A stretch of 32,985 nucleotides of DNA from Promethearchaeota archaeon (GTDB lineage Archaea > Asgardarchaeota > Hermodarchaeia > Hermodarchaeales > Hermodarchaeaceae): positions 1 to 32,985 of the forward strand of contig JBHLPH010000012.1 of assembly GCA_048939625.1 (NCBI GenBank). The letters are read 5' to 3'. The notes beneath the pieces were generated by a model that saw nothing but the letters and a program-made list of their open reading frames with translations, was not told the origin of the DNA and did not search any database. The position numbers and the translations under genes are program-made. Shown piece by piece: positions 10,689-32,985 of the stretch (its first letter is position 1; each line of letters begins with the position of its first letter).

Positions 10689-11309
10689 CTAATCTGCACT
10701 CCGTTCCCGTATGACTACAATGAAGATAAGGACTAGTCCAATGGCAACTAGGACATCACCGATTTGGTGCAAAAACAGGGATTCAATGGTAATCAATCCG
10801 AAGAGACTGGTAAAACAAGGGATCCCTGAGCTTATACTTGAGCATTGAAGTTGCGATGAAAATGCAATATTCATGAAGATTACGGCCACTCCCAAGGAAA
10901 AGAGGCCAATTAGCCCAAGGATGGCAAGGACGGGCGTTTTGCTTAACCATTCTCGCAGATGGGACACCACTTGGAACCATTTGAGAGGTTGGGTGTTTTC
11001 ATCTGGCTCAGGTTGGGGGCTCCGATGCAAGAGAAGTGTTAATCCCATAAGTATCATGCTGGTGACGAAGAAGAATATTCCCAAGTAATGCCAGAAGTCT
11101 GGGAACACTCGGAAATAAGGGAACAGGGACCACTGGATAATAATCCGGTAGCGTAGGGCAAAGATGGCCTCATCGAGACAAATCCAGACTGCGAAACTAA
11201 TGATGAAAAAGGGAATGAAGGCAAGGGAGTAGAAAACCCAATCAAGTTTAATGGTCCGAAGTCGTTGGAGTCTTTCACGCCATGAGGGTGTTACTTGATT
11301 CCCCATCAT
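10689..11309 (-). CDS. Four-TM membrane protein with two His-containing hairpin repeats
   Basis: Four hydrophobic helices; WHYLG and LHQIG at equivalent positions; ATGA overlap with the upstream paralogue. Confidence 0.75.
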   Translation of the reverse strand: MMGNQVTPSWRERLQRLRTIKLDWVFYSLAFIPFFIISFAVWICLDEAIFALRYRIIIQWSLFPYFRVFPDFWHYLGIFFFVTSMILMGLTLLLHRSPQPEPDENTQPLKWFQVVSHLREWLSKTPVLAILGLIGLFSLGVAVIFMNIAFSSQLQCSSISSGIPCFTSLFGLITIESLFLHQIGDVLVAIGLVLIFIVVIRERSAD

Positions 11310-24165: not shown

Positions 24166-24549
24166 ATGAGTATGGCGCTTCGGGATTTTTTGTACCCTCA
24201 ATTGGAAGTTCAGCTAATCCTGGCTAGAAGATTGGATGTCGATGAAGTACAAGCAGGCCAAGGAAGTTTATCTAAAAACTATCTAGCCGTCGCTGCTAAA
24301 ATTTCGTTAGCTACTCGAGATGCGCAGCGATTAGGATTAAAGGAAGCCAGTCACGTTGAAGTTAAATCGAAAATCGGTCGGGTGATTGTTGAGGCTAGAA
24401 TAGTTGAAAATCAACCAGAGGGTTTAGTGGTCATGCAGCCCAGTCCCTGGGCTTTTGCAGTCATTAATGACATGATTCACAGCCAAGGAACAAAAGTTAC
24501 AATCAAGGCTAGCGATGAGTCTGTAACTACTATTGAATCACTTCCCTAA
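24166..24549 (+). CDS. FwdD/FmdD-like molybdopterin-dinucleotide-binding domain protein, divergent
   Basis: DAQRLGLKEASHVEVKSKIGRVIV...PEGLVVMQPSPWA matches the FwdD fold, but the TGR and PWAN motifs are altered. Confidence 0.75.
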   Translation: MSMALRDFLYPQLEVQLILARRLDVDEVQAGQGSLSKNYLAVAAKISLATRDAQRLGLKEASHVEVKSKIGRVIVEARIVENQPEGLVVMQPSPWAFAVINDMIHSQGTKVTIKASDESVTTIESLP

Positions 24550-24577: not shown

Positions 24578-26065
24578 CTAGGATTTCTTCTTAGGCTTTT
24601 GTTTCGTTGTAGATGGTCGATTTGTCCCAGAAATTGGTTTCTTGGTTTTTGAAGCGGTATTTTTTACTTCTGTACATAAAGGGTCGATTCGGCCACGTTC
24701 AAAGAGTAACCGGAGTCGCCAATTCTCTCGAATCACATCTTGGAGTTTCTGTATTCGTTCTTGGGCTTTCTGTCGACTGACCTTATCCTCAGACCATTGC
24801 TCTGATTTCGTTTGAATAGTCGATCTTTGTTCAGTGGGAGGTACCTTGATGACTCGCTCGTAGATTTCTTTCAGAGGAGCTTGTCGTCCGATCAGATGAT
24901 CATAAAATACTCGCGCCCTAGCTCGTTCCCAATCCCGGGCCTTTTCAATTTGAGATAGATGATAACTCTCCCTGGATACCTTCAAGACCGATTCAGGGCA
25001 GGCATTTTCACAGGCGCCACAGAAGACGCAGATATCCTTGTTGATAGCGATCTTGTCTTTATCACCAGTCGGGTAAATTGCCTTGGTGGGACAAATATTG
25101 AAGCAGTTTACACACCCAGTGGGATCGCATTTTTCGAGATTTTCGATTTCAATTTCACCTGTGAGTGGTAGAGAAACGTCAAGGGCTTCATAAGGGCACT
25201 TCTCAGCGCAGAGTGTGCAATCAACACACAATCCATCATCAATGGTCATTGAGCCTTCAACGATTGGGTCTTTGATAGTTCGCTTGGGGGCAGAGTCACA
25301 TGTGACTTTCACTGCATCAGAGGGACAGATTTTCTCACAGAGTCCACAATAATCACATTGCTTTGTATCGACCCTAATACCCACAGCTGGCAGAAAATCT
25401 GGAGGCTTTGGTTTTTCCTCTGACCAATAAATCGTGATGCATTCAGGGCAGAGTAATTCACAAAGTCCACACCAAGTACATTTGTCTTCATCAATTGCAA
25501 TGGTTCCTTTTGCGTCTGGCTTTCCCCCATCGACGCGCTGAGCCGCTTTAGGGTCTTTATAAGTTACAAGTTCGAGTTTTGACGTAACCTTGAGGTCTAC
25601 AGTTATTGCATCGCGAGGACAGATTTTTGCACATAGTAGACAAGGTGCACATTTTTCGTCATCGAGTTCATGCTTTCCTTTTAATCGAGAGTATTGTTTG
25701 TCTGCCGGAATATCATCAAACCGAGCTTCTATCGCATTGAAGAGACAAGCTGAGTCACAGAGCCCACAAAATGTACATTTATCTTCATCAATAAGAATTA
25801 GCGGTGCACCTTCTAGACGTCCTGCTGCGATTTCTTGAACTGGTCCTAACGTGATGGCATCCCAAGGACAGGGGAGACAAAGACTGCATCCCACGCAGCG
25901 AGAAAGATCATATTTGAGATTCTTGTTGAGTAAGGAAGTCTTCCAGTTGTACTGAATATTAGTGTCATCCAGTACTTCACTGGTGACTTTAGGGCGCTCA
26001 CCAACAGTGATACGGTCACGTTGAGCTTTAGTCATATCGTAGTCCCTTGGAAATAATTCTGCCAA
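24578..26065 (-). CDS. fwdF: Polyferredoxin, FwdF/FmdF-like (eight 4Fe-4S motifs)
   Basis: Eight CxxCxxCxxxC-type motifs; AITLGPVQEIAAGRLEGAPLILIDEDKCTFCGLC is FwdF-typical. Confidence 0.85.
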   Translation of the reverse strand: MAELFPRDYDMTKAQRDRITVGERPKVTSEVLDDTNIQYNWKTSLLNKNLKYDLSRCVGCSLCLPCPWDAITLGPVQEIAAGRLEGAPLILIDEDKCTFCGLCDSACLFNAIEARFDDIPADKQYSRLKGKHELDDEKCAPCLLCAKICPRDAITVDLKVTSKLELVTYKDPKAAQRVDGGKPDAKGTIAIDEDKCTWCGLCELLCPECITIYWSEEKPKPPDFLPAVGIRVDTKQCDYCGLCEKICPSDAVKVTCDSAPKRTIKDPIVEGSMTIDDGLCVDCTLCAEKCPYEALDVSLPLTGEIEIENLEKCDPTGCVNCFNICPTKAIYPTGDKDKIAINKDICVFCGACENACPESVLKVSRESYHLSQIEKARDWERARARVFYDHLIGRQAPLKEIYERVIKVPPTEQRSTIQTKSEQWSEDKVSRQKAQERIQKLQDVIRENWRLRLLFERGRIDPLCTEVKNTASKTKKPISGTNRPSTTKQKPKKKS

Positions 26066-26300: not shown

Positions 26301-28004
26301 TTAAGGCTTCGATGACCGTGCGTTTGAGTAATCAGGAAAATGCAGCCCACACCGTGGGCAGAATTGGCGCTTTGCGAGCCAGTCAGTCATATGCTTATAA
26401 TGCGCTAACGCACCACAACCGGGGCAGAAGGCGATTGGAGTATCTGGAGAAAGCACCTCATCACAGAAAATACAGCGATGAAGAAGGGTAGAGCACAGTG
26501 AACATTGGCTGTCTGATTTCAAACATGTTGCACTACATTTCGGACATTGTGTTAATCCAGTAAGTACTGAGGTTAAATCCTCAATCATTCGAGGAGAGAG
26601 ATAAGTCTTCAGCACAGCCTGCTTTGTAGGCTGTGCCCAAGGATCTGAGATTTCTTTTCGACTTTGTCGGAGTAGCAAATAAGAACCTAACACCATAATG
26701 ATTGATAATCCTGTCCCCAAGAAGATTAGGAACATGTTGGGTGGGCCATATGTTCGCGTATCTTCTGGTAGAATTAGTTCTGGATTATCAGGAATACGAA
26801 GTGCCCAGGCTACCGAATGGTATTCTGCAAGGCTTTCACTTCGACCAGCGATTATAAAGTCCCCTTGAGAGGTCTGCAGTATCGAATATCCTTGATCGTC
26901 TTCTGTACCTCCATAGTTTTTGCTTCTGAGAAATTCACCTTCTCGTGTTAAGCGGACTAACCAAAGGTTGTCGAAGTGGTCGTTTCCTTCCCATTCGACC
27001 GTTCTTCCAGCGATGCCCAGACTGCCATCAGCAAGTTCAGTAATCGCATAAGCTGCATCAGAAGATTGCTCACCAAATAGCGTAGTCCATTGAAGGGTCC
27101 CGTTACTATGATATGAGATAGCAAATCCATCTGATACTAGATTTGAAGTCTTTTCAGTCTCGCCAACAGTAACTAAATTTCCGCTTCTGGTTTCAATAAC
27201 ATCTGAGCAGACATCTGACCATAGACTACCAAATGTCTTATTCCATAGTGCACCCCCCGTGGGTGAAGTGACAAGTAACCATGCATCCTCGTTGCCATGT
27301 CCGTAGCTCTCTGTTGAGCCCCCTAATACGAAATTACCCGACCTTGATTCTACTAATGAAGTACAAACTTCATCATCCATTCCCCCATACTCCTGACTCC
27401 AGAGCATATTTCCACTCTCGTCTGTTCGAACTAGCCATGATTGGGAGTTGGTATGATTTTCATTCATCACAGAACCTGCAAAAGCAAATCCTCCCGATTG
27501 ACATTCAACCAAGGATAGCCCCTGATCGAAATTCTGAGACCCACCAAATGTTTGATGCCAAGAAATAGTTCCGGATTCGTCTAAACGGATAAGAAGAGCG
27601 TCCCGATGATTGTCTGGGATATACCCAATTACTGCAAACCCCCCAGCTTCGCATTCGATGATTTCCCGTCCTACTTGAGCTGAAAAAGCTTCAAAGGCTT
27701 GGTGCCAAAGAAGGCGTCCATTTTCTGCAATTCTAACAATTGCTAGGGCTTGTTTCTCTCGATAGTGGATAAACCCTGTGGCAACATATCCTCCCGCCTT
27801 GCAAGAGATAATCGAGTAAAAGGCGTTATAACCAGCCCAAGAACCATGTGTCAGACTCCAAAGTTGATCTGTATTTACACGAGCATAATTTGGAGCTGTA
27901 TAATTTGCAGTATCAAGAGTTAATCCAAAGCCAATCCCTGTAATTATACTTGAAATTAGAATGCAAATGCAAAATAGTCTGCATTTCCTCAGCAAGCAGT
28001 CCAA
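26301..28004 (-). CDS. Single-pass membrane protein: signal peptide, beta-propeller ectodomain, TM helix, cytoplasmic Zn finger plus RING-like domain
   Basis: About 7 repeats of type WLVRTDESGNMLWSQEYGG; TM MFLIFLGTGLSIIMVLGSYLLL followed by RQSRK; CPKC-x10-CSLC-x6-CIFC-x12-CPGC-x4-H-x2-H-x3-W-x6-CPRC. Confidence 0.85.
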   Translation of the reverse strand: MDCLLRKCRLFCICILISSIITGIGFGLTLDTANYTAPNYARVNTDQLWSLTHGSWAGYNAFYSIISCKAGGYVATGFIHYREKQALAIVRIAENGRLLWHQAFEAFSAQVGREIIECEAGGFAVIGYIPDNHRDALLIRLDESGTISWHQTFGGSQNFDQGLSLVECQSGGFAFAGSVMNENHTNSQSWLVRTDESGNMLWSQEYGGMDDEVCTSLVESRSGNFVLGGSTESYGHGNEDAWLLVTSPTGGALWNKTFGSLWSDVCSDVIETRSGNLVTVGETEKTSNLVSDGFAISYHSNGTLQWTTLFGEQSSDAAYAITELADGSLGIAGRTVEWEGNDHFDNLWLVRLTREGEFLRSKNYGGTEDDQGYSILQTSQGDFIIAGRSESLAEYHSVAWALRIPDNPELILPEDTRTYGPPNMFLIFLGTGLSIIMVLGSYLLLRQSRKEISDPWAQPTKQAVLKTYLSPRMIEDLTSVLTGLTQCPKCSATCLKSDSQCSLCSTLLHRCIFCDEVLSPDTPIAFCPGCGALAHYKHMTDWLAKRQFCPRCGLHFPDYSNARSSKP

Positions 28005-28072: not shown

Positions 28073-30523
28073 TTAGCGACGTTTTGTCGTAACAGTCAGT
28101 TCAGAACCAAGGGGACCCATATCAATGACATTTTCAACAAAGTCTCGTACTATCTCAGCAAGTCGAGCTCCCTCTGAGGCAGAGATACTTTCGAAAATGA
28201 TGCGATCTGGATTTAGACCCATCTCTTCTAATAACGGTAGCATCTTTTCCACACGTTCTTTTGCCTTGCCCATTCCAGTCCGATAATGGCAATCAGTTTC
28301 ATGACATCCAATAATCGCAACACCATCAGCACCCTGGCTAAAGGCTTCAAGGATGAGTAAGGGATCCAGTCGACTCGTACAAGGAACTCGAATTGGAATC
28401 ATCTGTGGAGGATACCGTAATCGATTCACTCCTGCATAATCTGCCGCTGCATAAGCACACCAATTACAAAGAAACCCAATTATGACAGGGGAAAGTGGAT
28501 TCTCTTGGCAAGCGGTATCAACAGCTGAAAGGAGTTGTTGCCGAGTGAATCCAGGTAAATCAAGTGCTGCTGTTGGACAGGATGCCACACAGGCACCACA
28601 ACCCGTGCAGGCAAGTTCATCGATTTGGGGGTACTTTGACCCTTCAAACGAGATTGCGTTAGCATCACAGGTTTTTTCACATAATCGACAACTCTCACAC
28701 AATGCTTCATTTACAACAGGAGCATAGACCTCTAAATCGATTTTACGTCGATGTAACAGAGAAGATACTTGAGCTGCTGCTAAACCTGCATGAGCAACTG
28801 TGTCTGCGATATCCTTGGGACCTTGAGAAGTACCAGCAAGAAAAATACCAGCCGAGTAGGTTCCTGTTGGATCCAGTTTTGGATGTTTCTCCAAGAAGAA
28901 GTTATTCTCATCTAAGGGAATATTGAGTTTCAATGCAAGCTCGAGATTCGATGGAGCAGGATCTACGCCAACACTCAACACTACAAGATCTGCTGGAAAC
29001 TCAATGGGTTCACAAAGTTCAGTATCTTCTGCGCGGATAAGCAGTTTCTTTGTCTTAGGATCTTCTTCGATTTCAGCAACGCGACCTCGGATAAACGTGA
29101 TACCATGCTCTCTGCTAGCCCGTTCGTATAATTCTTCGAAACCTTTACCGAAGGTTCGCATGTCTGTATAGAAGATGTATACATCAGTTTCCGGTTGGGC
29201 TATACGTAGTTGAACGGCTTCCTTGATAGCGTATGTACAACAGATGCGACTACAATAGGGTCGATTTATCCTAATATCGCGGCTGCCTACACATTGGACA
29301 AACGCAACCCGTTTCGGAGCGTCTCCTGATGAGGGCTGTATAACCAAACCATGCGATGGACCCGAAGGATCCAGTAGCCGTTCCAGCTCTGGCGCAGTAA
29401 TAACATCAGTATATCGTTCGTACCCGTATTCTGTAAGATTTTGTGGATTAAAAGGTACAAAGCCGGTGGCAACCACTATCGCTCCAACTTTGAAGGTATG
29501 GTCTTGTTCGGTTTCTTCAAAGCGGATTGATTCTTTCTCACATACACCAACACAGGATTGGCAACCAATACAAGCATCCATATCAATGTATGGAGCAAGG
29601 GGCACTGAGCTCGGATAAGGGCGAATAATTGCGTGCTGAGATCCCAGCCCATAATTATATTCGTTGGGTTCTTCTATAGGACAAATCTCAAGGCATTTGT
29701 TACATCCGTTACAAGTCTCAAGGTCGACGTAGCGGGGTTCCTGATGAATCTTCACCTGATAGGCACCGGGTGTTCCCTGGACCTCGGTGACCTCACTTAG
29801 GGTTAGAATCTTGATTTTTGGATGAGTGTTTACCTGTGTCATCAACGGACCTAGGATACATAAACTACAATCGAGACTCGGGAAGAGTTTATCCCATTTT
29901 GCCATATGACCCCCAAGAAATCCACTTCTTTCTACAAGAATGACTTCGTATCCAGAATTCGCAAGTTGTAGTGAAGCTGTGATCCCAGCAGGTCCTCCGC
30001 CAATAACAAGAACTCGTCTTGTTATCGGTACACTTATTGAATTAATGCTGAGTCCAGCTTGTGCCATTTTTAAGGCTGCATCAATCATGAGTCGAGCTTT
30101 TGCGGTTGCTGCTTCGGGGTTATCCCAATGGACCCAACTGCATTGTTCACGTATATTCGCAATGGCGAGATGCCCTCGATTCAGTCCTGCTTCTTCAACA
30201 GTTTGACTCATTAATTCTCCGTGTAGTCGTGGTGAACAGGCAGCAACCACAACATTGGCAACCTTTTCCTTTCGGATGGTTTCCCGAATCAGATTTAGCC
30301 CTTGTTCAACACAAAAATGTGCATCATCAACTACGATAAGGTGTGATTGTTTCTTATAATGCTGAACGAGGTCTTCAACATTCACTATACTGGCAATATT
30401 TGACCCACACTGACAAAGAAATAATGCTGTTTTTGGTAACGCTTTTGATTTGGTTTTGCGGCGAGTGGACTTAGACTGTGGTGTCTTGAGCTTGGTTTTT
30501 TTAGATTTAGCCACAATCGTCAC
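28073..30523 (-). CDS. hdrA: Heterodisulfide reductase subunit A fused to an MvhD (hydrogenase delta, 2Fe-2S) domain
   Basis: CQCGSNIA, ACSPRLH, NIREQCSWVH, GGGPAG, FPSLDCSLCIL, QCVGSRD, YCSRICC, GPKDIADT and ferredoxin motifs; MvhD motifs FLCNWCAY, VPCTSR and GCHETDCHY. Confidence 0.95.
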   Translation of the reverse strand: MTIVAKSKKTKLKTPQSKSTRRKTKSKALPKTALFLCQCGSNIASIVNVEDLVQHYKKQSHLIVVDDAHFCVEQGLNLIRETIRKEKVANVVVAACSPRLHGELMSQTVEEAGLNRGHLAIANIREQCSWVHWDNPEAATAKARLMIDAALKMAQAGLSINSISVPITRRVLVIGGGPAGITASLQLANSGYEVILVERSGFLGGHMAKWDKLFPSLDCSLCILGPLMTQVNTHPKIKILTLSEVTEVQGTPGAYQVKIHQEPRYVDLETCNGCNKCLEICPIEEPNEYNYGLGSQHAIIRPYPSSVPLAPYIDMDACIGCQSCVGVCEKESIRFEETEQDHTFKVGAIVVATGFVPFNPQNLTEYGYERYTDVITAPELERLLDPSGPSHGLVIQPSSGDAPKRVAFVQCVGSRDIRINRPYCSRICCTYAIKEAVQLRIAQPETDVYIFYTDMRTFGKGFEELYERASREHGITFIRGRVAEIEEDPKTKKLLIRAEDTELCEPIEFPADLVVLSVGVDPAPSNLELALKLNIPLDENNFFLEKHPKLDPTGTYSAGIFLAGTSQGPKDIADTVAHAGLAAAQVSSLLHRRKIDLEVYAPVVNEALCESCRLCEKTCDANAISFEGSKYPQIDELACTGCGACVASCPTAALDLPGFTRQQLLSAVDTACQENPLSPVIIGFLCNWCAYAAADYAGVNRLRYPPQMIPIRVPCTSRLDPLLILEAFSQGADGVAIIGCHETDCHYRTGMGKAKERVEKMLPLLEEMGLNPDRIIFESISASEGARLAEIVRDFVENVIDMGPLGSELTVTTKRR

Positions 30524-30692
30524 CGAGTCTCTTTGACATGAGTTCAGGTACCAATATGAGTTTTAACACTTGTTACGTTACTATCTGATGATTTAATTGT
30601 TAAGGCGAATGGCAAATTAGACCTCCTGGTTGTTACCCAAGAGATAAAGGGAGAAATTAGACCAGAATACTGGTAGGCTGTGTCGTGAACTC

Positions 30693-31160
30693 ATGGTAGA
30701 TAAAAAAGTCAATCCCATGCAATTGTATAAACTCCTGCCCCAAACCAATTGCAAGAAGTGTGGTATGACCTGCATGGCTTTTGCAACGAAGCTAGCCCTC
30801 CGCGAAGTTGAACTGAAAGAATGCACACCGCTCTTTGAAGAAGAGCAGTATAAAGAGAAACTTGCCACACTCTCTGATCTCATTAGCCCTCTCTTAGAAA
30901 CTGAAGAAACAGGTTTGAAACTAGATGAGACCATATGTACAGGATGTGGCAATTGCGTTGTTGTCTGTCCAGTCGATGCATCCACAGAACCGGATACAGC
31001 TTCCGGGAAAGCTGCACGTTCAACTGACACAGTCTTCAGAGTTGAAGATGGCATCGCTAAGATTATCAACCTTGAGAAATGTCGTCGATTTCCACCCGAA
31101 CGCATGAATTGTCGTGTCTGTGAACAAGGTTGTTATGTGAAGGCTATCGAAATCTGGTAA
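30693..31160 (+). CDS. FwdG-like ferredoxin with an N-terminal Fe-S domain of the CdhE/RnfB type
   Basis: LPQTNCKKCGMTCMAFA...ECTPL; CTGCGNCVVVCPV; CRVCEQGCYVKAI; directly upstream of the fwdB-like gene. Confidence 0.8.
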   Translation: MVDKKVNPMQLYKLLPQTNCKKCGMTCMAFATKLALREVELKECTPLFEEEQYKEKLATLSDLISPLLETEETGLKLDETICTGCGNCVVVCPVDASTEPDTASGKAARSTDTVFRVEDGIAKIINLEKCRRFPPERMNCRVCEQGCYVKAIEIW

Positions 31161-31196: not shown

Positions 31197-32480
31197 GTGC
31201 AAGATACTGTATGTTGTGGCTGTTCAGTCGTCTGTGATGACGTGGCAGTATCAGTTAAAAAAGCCAGCTTGCAATCCTTAGGCCTCTGCAGACTCGGTCA
31301 TGAGTATTGTAGCTCGATATTCAGTAAAGCACGACTTACATATCCTTTGATGAAAACGGGTGATGGAAAACCGAAATCAACAACCATGAAGAAAGCCTTG
31401 GAGAAAGCTACAGAGCTCCTTCATGAAAGCAAAAGACCATTGTTAATCGGGTGGTCAAATAGTACAACCGAAGCGATCACCTGTGGATTGGACATCGCTC
31501 AACATAAGAGAGGAGTATTCGATAGCACCGCGAGCTTCGAATACGGGGCCCTTCTAGAATTTGGCTTGCATGGGGGTGAATCAGAAAAAACCTCATTGGA
31601 TACTGTACGGGATTTTGCCGACCACATAGTCTATTGGGGAGTCAACCCAGCAGAAAGCCACCATCGTCATGCCAGTCGATACACAGTGTTTCCCAAAGGC
31701 AAGAATATCCCAGAAGGTCGTGAAAGTCGTGTGGTATCAGTGATTGATATTCGAGATACAGAATCCATGCGATTAGCAAACCATCAACTGATTCTTTCCC
31801 CTTCCACGGGCGACGAGGAATTTCTGAATTTACTTATCGCTGAACTCGATGGAACTCGCGAACACCTACCTGATAAAATTGGAGGAGTGCCTGCTATTGA
31901 GTTTCTCAGTTTTAGTAAACAACTTCGAGAAGCAAGTGATGTAGCCTTATTTTATGGCAATGGTTTACTGCATTCACCGAACACTCGACGCATTCTACCG
32001 CTACTTGCCAAGGTGAATGGCCTTCTCAATCGAAACCAGCACCGATGCTGGACATTACCGATGATAGCATACTGCAATACGATTGGAGCGGTGAAAGCTA
32101 GTCTAAAAGTGGCGAAGATACCATTTGCCATTGATTTTCACTCAAAATCAGGAAAATCACTGCCATCGATTTTCTCTGAAATCCGGGACACTAAATTTGA
32201 TTGTGTGGTAATTGTGGGTTGGGATGCATTGAGCCTTTTACCAGGACCTATTTCCAAAGCCCTCACGAATCTTCCTATAATAGCTTTGTCGACTCATCCG
32301 ACTTTAACAACACAAAAAGCAAGCGTTGTTTTTCCAACAGCCCTAACAGGTGCAGAAGCAGCAGGCACTGTTCATCGCATGGACGGAACAACAATATCTC
32401 TTCAACCTTTCAAGGTACCACCTAAAGGTGTTCTCACAGAAGAAGCACTTTTAACGCAACTTCTTGAAAACCTCACCTAG
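31197..32480 (+). CDS. FwdB/FmdB-like subunit lacking W/Mo catalytic residues (FhcB-like)
   Basis: N-terminal CCGCSVVCDD...CRLG, GWSNSTTEA, YWGVNPAESHHRHASRY and GTVHRMDG identify the family. DSTASFEYG replaces DNTASVCHG, and PMIAYCN replaces PMRGHYN. Confidence 0.85.
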   Translation: MQDTVCCGCSVVCDDVAVSVKKASLQSLGLCRLGHEYCSSIFSKARLTYPLMKTGDGKPKSTTMKKALEKATELLHESKRPLLIGWSNSTTEAITCGLDIAQHKRGVFDSTASFEYGALLEFGLHGGESEKTSLDTVRDFADHIVYWGVNPAESHHRHASRYTVFPKGKNIPEGRESRVVSVIDIRDTESMRLANHQLILSPSTGDEEFLNLLIAELDGTREHLPDKIGGVPAIEFLSFSKQLREASDVALFYGNGLLHSPNTRRILPLLAKVNGLLNRNQHRCWTLPMIAYCNTIGAVKASLKVAKIPFAIDFHSKSGKSLPSIFSEIRDTKFDCVVIVGWDALSLLPGPISKALTNLPIIALSTHPTLTTQKASVVFPTALTGAEAAGTVHRMDGTTISLQPFKVPPKGVLTEEALLTQLLENLT

Positions 32481-32548: not shown

Positions 32549-32985
32549 ATGAAAATTGCAGTTGCTGGGAAAGGCGGAGTAGGCAAAACCCTCATCGCTG
32601 GAACTCTGGCTCGATTCCTTGGAAGAGAAAATATCAAAGTATTAGCTGTTGATGCAGATCCCACACCAACTTTAGCAACGACCCTAGGCATCCCTCAGGA
32701 GATTGCTTCAAAGATTGTACCTTTGACTGAAAACGACGAACTCGTTGAGGAACGCACGGGCATGGACAAAAAGACTTACGGTGGAATGTTTAAACTCAAT
32801 CCGCATGTCTCTGACTTGGCTGAAAAATATGGTATTGCAGGTCCTGATAACACAACCCTTCTTGTCGCAGGAACAGTTACGATAGGTGGATCAGGTTGCA
32901 TGTGCCCTGCAGGAGCTATGCTTAAGGCACTCATCCGATACCTCATTGTGGGCACTGATGAAGCCTTTGTAATGGACCTCGAAGC
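32549..32985 (+). CDS. cooC: CooC/AcsF-type nickel-insertion ATPase; 3'-truncated by the window edge
   Basis: Not in the supplied ORF list. Translates as MKIAVAGKGGVGKT (deviant Walker A), VDADP, FKLNPHVSD, GSGCMCP (Ni-binding CxC) and MDLEA. Confidence 0.9.
   Translation, partial: MKIAVAGKGGVGKTLIAGTLARFLGRENIKVLAVDADPTPTLATTLGIPQEIASKIVPLTENDELVEERTGMDKKTYGGMFKLNPHVSDLAEKYGIAGPDNTTLLVAGTVTIGGSGCMCPAGAMLKALIRYLIVGTDEAFVMDLE

What the first reader, a model, noticed from the sequence alone, without database searches (positions are those of the whole stretch)
31197..32480. FwdB homologue that has lost all tungsten/molybdenum active-site residues
Seen: E115-Y116 (GAA TAC, 31539-31544) replace the metal-ligating Cys/Sec and the adjacent His of the SVCHG motif. 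M289-I-A-Y-C-N replaces M-R-G-H-Y-N, removing the substrate-binding Arg and His. The four N-terminal 4Fe-4S cysteines remain. Known: bacterial FhcB is a cofactor-less FwdB, and the Fhc complex releases formate instead of CO2. Inference: an archaeal pseudo-enzyme, either an Fhc-like formate-releasing or formate-accepting module or a redox scaffold that keeps its Fe-S cluster.
Basis: partly seen in the sequence, partly recalled or inferred. Interest (0 to 1): 0.8.

Follow-up and report, generated by a model that had tools for sequence, protein, structure and literature searches.

The report
Dead FwdB paralog beside CODH/ACS
Besides a normal CO2-reducing FwdB, this Asgard (Hermodarchaeota-type) archaeon keeps a second, conserved copy that has lost its tungsten/molybdenum ligand and catalytic residues but kept its iron-sulfur motif; it lies in an HdrA/polyferredoxin gene set joined to the acetyl-CoA synthase genes, so it is probably an electron relay or docking subunit, a lineage variant of a known kind of pseudo-enzyme.

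Summary
ORF 31197-32480 is a full-length FwdB homologue. Cys118/His119 of M. wolfeii FwdB are replaced by Glu115/Tyr116, and Arg288/His290 by Ile290/Tyr292. The four [4Fe-4S] cysteines remain. The genome also has canonical FwdB, FwdD, FwdA, FwdC and Ftr on other contigs.

The gene belongs to an ancient FwdB paralogue clade. None of the 41 members sampled has Arg288. Cys was lost at least three times. The Glu-Tyr state is invariant in 23 Hermod-type sequences and was seen in no other lineage sampled.

The context is conserved: FwdD-like, FwdF-like polyferredoxin and HdrA-MvhD face FwdG-like, FwdB-like, CooC and CdhABCD. No fwdA, fwdC or ftr lies nearby, and the protein keeps the Fe-S domain and the D partner that FhcB lacks. 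The Fhc-like reading is therefore not supported. The redox-scaffold reading is.

Whether the pterin is still bound is open: there is no loop remodelling, but the partner FwdD-like has lost two residues kept in all Cys-bearing lineages.

This scan has found the same module several times in other Asgard genomes. A dead molybdoprotein in Hdr gene clusters is published (PMC12054007). This is a new variant of a known kind.

The parts
31197..32480 (+). FwdB-like protein (427 aa, GTG start), the subject of the finding
   Evidence: TIGR03129 scores 285.4 bits, below the 327.8 cut-off. Best PDB match is 5T5I_B, E 1.9e-53. AF2 model pLDDT 95.9, TM 0.90-0.93 to FwdB/FmdB.
31212..31289 (+). N-terminal [4Fe-4S] cysteine motif (C6, C9, C13, C31)
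   Evidence: Aligned with the canonical CxxCxxxC...C motif. Kept in 96-100% of all groups.
31539..31544 (+). Glu115-Tyr116 in place of the Cys/Sec metal ligand and the adjacent His
   Evidence: Invariant in 23 Hermod-type sequences. Seen in no other lineage sampled.
32061..32078 (+). M289-I-A-Y-C-N in place of M-R-G-H-Y-N (Arg288 and His290 lost)
   Evidence: This site varies within the lineage: I/V, A/T/W, Y/H/L, C/S.
30693..31160 (+). FwdG-like 2x[4Fe-4S] protein with an extra N-terminal Fe-S domain of the CFeSP/RnfB type; 36 bases upstream of the FwdB-like gene
   Evidence: PF04060 plus Fer4. Residues 74-131 match FwdG 5T5I_G (E 1.6e-11); residues 9-70 match the N-terminus of the CFeSP large subunit. 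Adjacent to the FwdB-like gene in nearly all loci.
24166..24549 (+). FwdD-like protein (127 aa), putative partner of the FwdB-like protein
   Evidence: NF042908 scores 41.5 bits. Conserved position in the cluster. Predicted interface with the FwdB-like protein: ipSAE 0.93, best control 0.00. It lacks the Asn and Gln kept in the FwdD of every Cys-bearing lineage.
24578..26065 (-). FwdF-like polyferredoxin (495 aa)
   Evidence: NF042909 scores 222.7 bits; multiple Fer4 domains. Conserved next to HdrA.
28073..30523 (-). HdrA2-type flavoprotein fused to MvhD (816 aa), divergent from the FwdG-like/FwdB-like genes
   Evidence: NF040770 scores 916.8 bits; PF02662 at residues 681-803. Present in 13 of 14 Hermod-type and 32 of 33 Thor-type loci.
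32549..32985 (+). CooC-like P-loop ATPase. It runs off the window and is followed on the contig by cdhA, cdhB, cdhC and cdhD.
   Evidence: CbiA/ParA/ArsA families. 88% identical to the orthologue in L074. CdhA scores 1129.7 bits, CdhB 119.6, CdhC 700, CdhD 542 downstream.

Best explanation
The protein is the B' subunit of an FwdG'-FwdB'-FwdD' set. The set descends from an old paralogue of FwdB in which none of the 41 members sampled has the substrate-binding Arg. The common ancestor of the Hermod- and Thor-type lineages then also lost the Cys metal ligand, and the Hermod lineage fixed Glu-Tyr at that site.

The protein cannot reduce CO2 or oxidise formate. It keeps its N-terminal [4Fe-4S] cluster and its pairing with an FwdD-like cap. 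I propose it is the end piece, or docking piece, of an iron-sulfur chain: HdrA-MvhD flavoprotein, then FwdF-like polyferredoxin, then FwdG', then FwdB'. This chain would exchange very low-potential electrons with the CODH/ACS encoded directly downstream.

Shown here: the residue replacements, their conservation, the fold, the phylogeny and the gene linkage. Inferred: the electron-relay role, the CODH/ACS partner, and probable loss of the metal (about 90%) and of the pterin (about 65%).
For: - Residues: replacements confirmed; Fe-S cysteines kept.
- Fold: full FwdB fold, pLDDT 95.9, TM 0.90-0.93.
- Other copies: canonical FwdB, FwdD, FwdA, FwdC and Ftr lie elsewhere in the genome, so this copy is additional.
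- Phylogeny: the careful tree separates canonical FwdB from the paralogue clade (100/99) and makes Hermod and Thor sisters (100/99). None of the 41 clade members has Arg288.
- Synteny: FwdD', polyferredoxin and HdrA-MvhD facing FwdG' and FwdB' recur in Hermod, Thor, Baldr, Hod, Bathyarchaeia and Thermoproteota. CooC and CdhA follow in 10 of 14 Hermod-type and 26 of 33 Thor-type loci, mostly limited by contig ends, but in only 4 of 13 Cys-bearing Asgard/TACK loci.
- Partner: FwdD' lost the Asn of P-W-A-N and the Gln after the conserved Arg only in Cys-less lineages.
- Pocket: D365, conserved in Cys-bearing proteins, is Ser here and Gly in Thor.
- Rate: dN is 4-6 times that of canonical FwdB in the same genome pairs, yet omega is about 0.12, so the gene is constrained but less so than the enzyme.
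- B'/D' pairing: ipSAE 0.93 with best control 0.00. That mark was reached by 58 of 80 solved complexes and 2 of 110 mismatched pairs. The runs share at least 92% of contacts and partner pLDDT is at least 87. This is a textbook pair, so the pass may reflect likeness to 5T5I.
- Precedent: a Cys-less molybdoprotein was proposed as a structural subunit of type II HdrA complexes (PMC12054007).
Against: - No contact between this module and CODH/ACS was tested.
- No HdrBC, hydrogenase or FdhB is encoded in the cluster, so the donor and the high-potential acceptor of any bifurcation are unknown. CCG-domain proteins and [NiFe] hydrogenases exist elsewhere.
- Loss of the pterin is not shown. The alignment to 5T5I_B has only 1-3-residue gaps and no remodelled loops. 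The D-type cap is kept. 70% of canonical-invariant columns are kept, the same as in Cys-bearing paralogues at 72%.
- The strict invariance of Glu115-Tyr116-Gly117 suggests the old active site still does something.
Confidence: 0.6

Rival explanations
1. The protein still binds bis-PGD, with or without W/Mo, and the invariant Glu115 (with Tyr116) forms a changed active site. It would be an oxidoreductase for a substrate other than CO2/formate, fed by the HdrA chain.
For: Glu-Tyr-Gly is invariant although only 26% of columns are. There are no loop insertions relative to 5T5I_B. The FwdD-like cap is kept, with a confident canonical-type interface. 70% of canonical-invariant columns are retained, including W147-G-x-N-P, D184, R394 and D396. 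Asp and Ser ligands exist in the DMSO reductase family (table in PMC10100899).
Against: No Glu ligand is listed for this superfamily in the table of PMC10100899. Arg288, His119 and His290 are all gone. FwdD' lost two residues that are invariant in every Cys-bearing lineage. D365 is lost. The sister Thor lineage has a variable Gly-x at the same site, so the common ancestor was probably already inactive. dN is 4-6 times that of the canonical enzyme. MoaC was found in only 2 of 19 genomes of the family.
Confidence: 0.15
2. Fhc-like scaffold: the protein replaces canonical FwdB in a complex with FwdA, FwdC and Ftr, so that formate is released or taken up instead of CO2.
For: Like FhcB, it lacks Cys118, His119 and Arg288. 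The genome has single fwdA, fwdC and ftr genes that could in principle be shared.
Against: It keeps the Fe-S domain and a D-type partner, both of which FhcB lacks. It is never next to fwdA, fwdC or ftr in the roughly 80 named loci. 6S6Y_B was not a sequence hit at E <= 1e-3 and has TM of only 0.65. The neighbouring amidohydrolase of the Hermod lineage resembles 3OOQ, not FwdA.
Confidence: 0.05
3. Decaying relic: a duplicated fwdB on its way to loss, with no function of its own.
For: It evolves 4-6 times faster than canonical FwdB and scores below the curated family cut-off.
Against: The frame is intact in all 18 other genomes of the family that were searched. Omega is about 0.12. The model is confident, pLDDT 95.9. 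Long invariant blocks and conserved synteny extend across phyla.
Confidence: 0.03

Closest known systems
FwdB/FmdB, catalytic subunit of formylmethanofuran dehydrogenase (PDB 5T5I_B, 8RJA_B, 7BKB_H)
   Same: Same length and fold (TM 0.90-0.93). Same N-terminal [4Fe-4S] cysteine motif. Accompanied by G-, D- and F-type partner genes.
   Different: Cys118, His119, Arg288 and His290 are replaced. It scores below the TIGR03129 cut-off. It is not encoded with fwdA or fwdC. It evolves 4-6 times faster than the genome's own canonical FwdB.
FhcB of the bacterial formyltransferase/hydrolase complex (PDB 6S6Y_B; PMC6926001)
   Same: A FwdB-derived pseudo-enzyme without the Cys, His and Arg, acting as a scaffold.
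   Different: FhcB has no Fe-S domain and no D subunit, has loops that clash with the pterin, and lies in an fhcBADC operon. Here the Fe-S domain and a D-type partner are kept, no loop remodelling is visible, and the neighbours are HdrA and CODH/ACS.
FwdG-FwdB-FwdD gene trios without fwdA/fwdC: Methanotrichaceae loci L130-L153; the set named fwdG2B2D2 in Methanosarcina (PMC2838876); the Fwd-Hdr cluster of Ca. Methanonezhaarchaeum (PMC12700198)
   Same: The Methanotrichaceae proteins fall in the same paralogue clade as the window's protein, lack Arg288, and have the G-B-D gene set. Methanonezhaarchaeum also links a second FwdBD, with FwdF and FwdG, to Hdr.
   Different: The Methanotrichaceae proteins keep the Cys (Cys-Gln or Cys-Glu) and are not beside hdrA or cdh in the loci I fetched. 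The Methanonezhaarchaeum cluster was proposed to oxidise formate. I could not fetch M. acetivorans FwdB2 or the Methanonezhaarchaeum protein, so their place in the clade is untested (one search returned only Methanotrichaceae).
Non-catalytic 'Molybdop' protein of type II HdrA gene clusters in ANME-2/3 and Methanosarcinaceae (PMC12054007)
   Same: A Cys-less molybdopterin-family protein encoded with HdrA and MvhD, proposed to be a structural, non-catalytic subunit of a bifurcating complex.
   Different: That clade is related to FdhA/FdhG, is paired with FdhB and HdrBC, and occurs in methane-metabolising Euryarchaeota. This protein is FwdB-derived, paired with FwdD', FwdG' and FwdF', lies in Asgard archaea and is joined to cdh.
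Molybdopterin-fold domain of NuoG/Nqo3 in respiratory complex I
   Same: The fold is retained: Foldseek hits 7Z7R_G, 4HEA_3 and others at E about 1e-17 to 1e-19. From my own knowledge, it is a cofactor-free descendant of a formate-dehydrogenase-like enzyme that keeps Fe-S clusters.
   Different: It is a distant relative (TM 0.65-0.74), fused into a much larger subunit, and has no D-type cap as a separate protein.

Membership tests
FwdB/FmdB (NCBIfam TIGR03129, catalytic subunit) | Score above the curated family cut-off | tested here: not met
   285.4 bits against a cut-off of 327.8. The genome's canonical copy scores 517.6.
FwdB/FmdB (NCBIfam TIGR03129, catalytic subunit) | FwdB fold with an N-terminal [4Fe-4S] cysteine motif | tested here: met
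   TM 0.90-0.93 to 8RJA_B, 5T5I_B and 7BKB_H. C6, C9, C13 and C31 are conserved.
FwdB/FmdB (NCBIfam TIGR03129, catalytic subunit) | Cys or Sec ligand of W/Mo (Cys118) with His119, Arg288 and His290 | tested here: not met
   Glu115, Tyr116, Ile290 and Tyr292. The Glu codon is GAA, not TGA.
FwdB/FmdB (NCBIfam TIGR03129, catalytic subunit) | Encoded and assembled with FwdA and FwdC | tested here: not met
   fwdA and fwdC lie on contig C8. Neither is present in any of the related loci. Assembly itself is not testable here.
FwdB/FmdB (NCBIfam TIGR03129, catalytic subunit) | Bound W/Mo-bis-PGD cofactor | not testable with these tools
   Indirect signs conflict: no indels and the D cap is kept, against loss of the FwdD' Asn/Gln and of D365.
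FhcB (formyltransferase/hydrolase complex) | Loss of Cys118, His119 and Arg288 | tested here: met
   compared with PMC6926001.
FhcB (formyltransferase/hydrolase complex) | N-terminal Fe-S domain missing and no D subunit | tested here: not met
   The Fe-S motif is present. An FwdD-like gene lies in the cluster and is predicted to bind.
FhcB (formyltransferase/hydrolase complex) | Operon with fhcA, fhcD (ftr-type) and fhcC | tested here: not met
   The neighbours are HdrA, polyferredoxin, CooC and Cdh.
Arg-less FwdB paralogue clade with FwdG and FwdD partners | Monophyly apart from canonical FwdB | tested here: met
   Split supported at 100/99 in the careful tree of 53 rows. The same split appears in the 93-row quick tree.
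Arg-less FwdB paralogue clade with FwdG and FwdD partners | No Arg at position 288, and an adjacent FwdG-like gene | tested here: met
Arg-less FwdB paralogue clade with FwdG and FwdD partners | Cys ligand retained (the state of most lineages in the clade) | tested here: not met
   Glu in Hermod; Gly/Ala in Thor; Tyr or Gly in some Bathyarchaeia; Tyr in Hel.
Non-catalytic Molybdop of type II HdrA clusters (PMC12054007) | Cys-less MopB protein encoded with HdrA and MvhD | tested here: met
Non-catalytic Molybdop of type II HdrA clusters (PMC12054007) | FdhA/FdhG-related clade, paired with FdhB and HdrBC | tested here: not met
   The protein is FwdB-derived. No fdhB or hdrBC lies in the cluster. 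No sequence of that published clade was included in my trees.

The most novel reading that the evidence does not exclude
The invariant Glu115-Tyr116 is a working site rather than a scar. The B'/D' pair would still hold a bis-PGD cofactor with a carboxylate (Glu) ligand to W/Mo, a ligand not listed for this enzyme superfamily in the table I read (PMC10100899). Alternatively the site could hold another metal. The pair would catalyse a non-formate redox step inside an HdrA-driven supercomplex that feeds bifurcated low-potential electrons directly into CODH/ACS, or into reductive activation of its corrinoid protein. The CFeSP-type Fe-S domain on FwdG' hints at this last option.
Probability: 0.1. 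Interest if true: 0.85.

Novelty: new variant of a known kind. Interest (0 to 1): 0.5.

Why it matters
CO2 reduction to CO at CODH needs electrons about as low in potential as CO2 reduction at Fwd. Methanogens meet the Fwd demand by wiring HdrA bifurcation directly into Fwd through polyferredoxins. In Hermod- and Thor-type Asgard archaea the same wiring kit has lost its CO2-reducing metal site and is encoded in line with CODH/ACS. If it docks there, it would be a second kind of bifurcation-driven carbon-fixing supercomplex, in the lineage closest to eukaryotes, and it would change energy budgets drawn for Asgard acetogenesis. For annotation, genes called 'formylmethanofuran dehydrogenase subunit B' in Asgard, Bathyarchaeia and Thermoproteota genomes are often this paralogue and should not be counted as evidence for a working Fwd.

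Tried and rejected
I obtained synteny from the genome search, the fetch from genomes and the search for related loci instead.
- I could not obtain an FhcB sequence by reference, so FhcB is missing from the trees. The comparison with it rests on PDB sequence and fold searches and on PMC6926001.
- P0187-type Cys-less bacterial relatives turned out nearer to FwdB than to FhcB and were not followed.
- A search seeded with a Methanosarcinales MAG protein, meant to reach M. acetivorans FwdB2, returned only Methanotrichaceae-type proteins. The link to the published name fwdG2B2D2 therefore rests on gene order alone.
- dS was saturated for all but the closest genome pair, so only one omega estimate is usable.
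The pterin pocket could not be inspected, and I used conservation of canonical-invariant columns instead.
- My simple gene caller first picked the antisense ORF 30617-31105. It has no family match, whereas the sense ORF 30693-31160 matches Fe-S families.
- The short CooC ORF (224 aa) seen beyond the window is caused by a run of N in the held contig, not by a truncation.
- C293 as a substitute ligand is rejected: it is Ser in the sister genus.
- The amidohydrolase downstream as an FwdA/FhcA stand-in is rejected: its best match is 3OOQ_A, E 2e-96.
Full report
**Observation.** ORF 31197-32480 (+) encodes a 427-residue protein. Bases 31539-31544 read GAA TAC, within T-A-S-F-E-Y-G-A. Bases 32061-32078 encode M-I-A-Y-C-N. 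In the phmmer alignment to M. wolfeii FwdB (5T5I_B, E 1.9e-53, residues 1-425 on 4-424), Cys118-His119 lie over Glu115-Tyr116, and Arg288-Gly-His290 lie over Ile290-Ala-Tyr292. The four N-terminal cysteines (C6, C9, C13, C31) align with the canonical Fe-S motif.

**What the protein is.** It scores 285.4 bits on the FwdB model TIGR03129, below the curated cut-off of 327.8. An AlphaFold2 model built on a 100-row alignment has mean pLDDT 95.9. That model superposes on FwdB/FmdB chains 8RJA_B, 5T5I_B and 7BKB_H with TM 0.90-0.93. FhcB (6S6Y_B) is only rank 28, with TM 0.65 on the query, and was not a sequence hit at E <= 1e-3.

**The rest of the genome.** The assembly is 87.6% complete. It also has a canonical FwdB on contig C15 (517.6 bits, with S-V-C-H-G and P-L-R-G-H-F-N) and a canonical FwdD 3.4 kb upstream of it. 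FwdA, Ftr and FwdC lie on contig C8, one copy each. The window copy is therefore an extra paralogue, not the cell's only FwdB.

**Distribution and history.**
- Close orthologues (56-79% identity) occur in all 18 other genomes of the same GTDB family among 201 Asgard genomes searched. Records name them Hermodarchaeota or Promethearchaeota.
- In a scan of 1.84 billion cluster representatives, 820 proteins matched. Of the 134 long ones examined, only about 30 have Cys-His and about 27 have Arg, while nearly all keep the four Fe-S cysteines. Cys-less FwdB relatives are therefore common.
- A careful ML tree of 53 rows separates canonical FwdB from a paralogue clade with support 100/99.
- None of the 41 sampled members of that clade has Arg288.
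- Methanotrichaceae keep Cys-Gln or Cys-Glu.
- Jord-, Frey-, Hod- and Baldr-archaeal, Bathyarchaeia and Thermoproteota members mostly keep Cys-His.
- Cys was lost at least three times: in the Hermod+Thor ancestor (sisters at 100/99), in some Bathyarchaeia/Hecatellales (Tyr-Tyr, Gly-Tyr), and in a Helarchaeote (Tyr-Lys).
- Thor-type proteins have a variable Gly-x at the site. Hermod-type proteins have Glu-Tyr-Gly in all 23 distinct sequences, although only 26% of their columns are invariant.
- The Arg/His site is variable within the Hermod lineage. C293 is Ser in the sister genus.

**Gene context.**
- One arrangement recurs across the loci fetched: an FwdD-like gene, then on the opposite strand an FwdF-like polyferredoxin and an HdrA-MvhD fusion, then divergently an FwdG-like Fe-S protein followed by the FwdB-like gene.
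- It occurs in Hermod, Thor, Baldr, Hod, Bathyarchaeia, Thermoproteota and Hecatellales.
- In Hermod- and Thor-type loci, a CooC-like ATPase and cdhA-cdhB-cdhC-cdhD follow on the same strand. Thor loci also carry cdhE and a second cooC.
- CdhA is present in 10 of 14 Hermod-type and 26 of 33 Thor-type loci, the rest mostly being cut by contig ends. It is present in only 4 of 13 Cys-bearing Asgard/TACK loci and in none of the 18 Methanotrichaceae loci, which carry only FwdG-FwdB-FwdD.
- The FwdG-like protein is a chimera. Its C-terminal half matches FwdG (5T5I_G, E 1.6e-11). Its N-terminal 60 residues match the Fe-S domain at the start of the corrinoid iron-sulfur protein large subunit.
- No fwdA, fwdC, ftr, hdrB/C, hydrogenase or fdhB gene lies in the cluster. 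CCG-domain proteins and [NiFe] hydrogenases exist elsewhere in the genome.

**Is the cofactor gone?**
- *For loss:* there is no Cys or Sec ligand, and no His119, Arg288 or His290. In the partner FwdD-like protein, the Asn of P-W-A-N and the Gln that follows the conserved Arg are kept in the canonical FwdD and in every Cys-bearing lineage. They are replaced in Hermod (Phe/Tyr; Asp), Thor (Leu; Asp) and Hel. D365, conserved in 88% of canonical and 79% of Cys-bearing paralogues, is Ser here and Gly in Thor. MoaC and MoeA gave no match and MoaA none above its family cut-off in this genome. MoaC was found in only 2 of 19 genomes of the family, which are 72-91% complete.
- *Against loss:* the alignment to 5T5I_B has only gaps of 1-3 residues. 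FhcB, in contrast, lost the pterin through clashing loops and absence of the D subunit (PMC6926001; PMC11656701). The FwdD-like gene is kept. ESMFold2 places FwdD' on the FwdB-like protein with ipSAE 0.93 and a best control of 0.00. That mark was reached by 58 of 80 solved complexes and 2 of 110 mismatched pairs. The runs share at least 92% of contacts and partner pLDDT is at least 87. Because FwdBD structures are solved, this pass may reflect likeness only. Of 60 columns at least 85% conserved in canonical FwdB, the Hermod clade keeps 70%, the Cys-bearing paralogues 72% and Thor 56%.
- *My reading:* the metal is very probably absent. The pterin is probably absent, but this is open.

**Selection.** Against the same partner genomes, the paralogue is 56-79% identical where canonical FwdB is 75-94% identical. 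Its dN is 4-6 times higher. For the closest pair, omega is about 0.12 against 0.045, with dS near saturation. The gene is under purifying selection, but weaker than on the enzyme. This fits a structural or electron-transfer role.

**Mechanism proposed.** In the solved Hdr-Fwd/Fmd supercomplexes, low-potential electrons leave the bifurcating flavin of HdrA, pass through polyferredoxins (FwdF/FmdF, VhuB/MvhB) and end at the tungstopterin of FwdB (PMC13518236; PMC13580544). Here the same parts are present, but the terminal metal site is gone and the genes run into the CODH/ACS operon. I therefore propose that FwdG'B'D' is the last, docking part of an Fe-S wire between HdrA-MvhD/polyferredoxin and CODH/ACS. 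The [4Fe-4S] cluster of B' would be the final relay. The direction of flow, the donor and the high-potential acceptor are unknown. No contact with CODH/ACS was tested.

**Comparison with known systems.**
- The protein works most like other cofactor-poor descendants of molybdoenzymes. It is not FhcB, because it fails three of FhcB's defining features.
- The nearest published concept is the Cys-less Molybdop protein in type II HdrA clusters, proposed as a structural subunit (PMC12054007). That protein is FdhA-related and paired with FdhB and HdrBC.
- The nearest gene sets are the G-B-D trios without A/C: those named fwdG2B2D2 in Methanosarcina (PMC2838876) and the Fwd-Hdr cluster of Methanonezhaarchaeum, proposed to oxidise formate (PMC12700198). 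I could confirm clade membership only for the Methanotrichaceae loci.
- In the papers I could search I found no description of the Asgard Cys-less forms or of the Glu-Tyr state.

**Earlier notes of this scan.** The same module (HdrA-MvhD, polyferredoxin, FwdG', inactive FwdB'/D' beside CODH/ACS) was reported several times on other Asgard genomes and on this window. New here:
- the placement of the Hermod Glu-Tyr state as a fixed derivative of a Cys-less ancestor;
- the absence of Arg across the whole paralogue clade;
- the count of independent Cys losses;
- the correlated changes in FwdD';
- the rate comparison with the canonical copy.

**Limits.** Model coordinates and a pterin ligand were not available. 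Part of the contig just beyond the window reads N.

Noticed in passing
window 30693-31160 (+): The FwdG-like protein carries an extra N-terminal Fe-S domain (PF04060). This domain otherwise begins the corrinoid iron-sulfur protein large subunit (CdhE/AcsC) and RnfB. Such a fusion next to cdh genes could point to electron delivery to the corrinoid protein.
   Followed up: partly
whole genome G000 and its GTDB family (19 genomes): MoaC and MoeA gave no match and MoaA none above its family cut-off in G000. MoaC was found in only 2 of 19 family genomes. Yet canonical FwdB keeps its Cys and is under strong constraint (omega about 0.045). The source of the pterin cofactor is unexplained.
   Followed up: partly
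window 26301-28004 (-): A beta-propeller membrane protein gene lies between the polyferredoxin and HdrA genes in Hermod-type loci only (one or two copies). It is absent from the same position in Thor, Bathyarchaeia and Thermoproteota loci. It is an insertion into the module and is covered by another finding of this scan.
   Followed up: no
contig C29 beyond the window (L067 11501-13373): Only Hermod-type loci carry one to three ICMT-like membrane methyltransferase genes and a 3OOQ-like amidohydrolase between cooC and cdhA. Their function and their relation to the module are unknown.
   Followed up: partly
window 30617-31105 (-): A 162-aa antisense ORF overlaps the FwdG-like gene. It has no family match and is probably spurious.
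   Followed up: partly
L100, L106, L123, L131 (Bathyarchaeia/Hecatellales) and L133 (Helarchaeota): These are further independent Cys-less variants of the same paralogue: Tyr-Tyr, Gly-Tyr and Tyr-Lys at the ligand site. Some lie next to cdhA.
   Followed up: partly
L067 about 11000-11200 (contig C29 just after the window end): The held contig has a run of N inside the 3' half of the CooC-like gene, which produces an apparently short ORF.
   Followed up: yes
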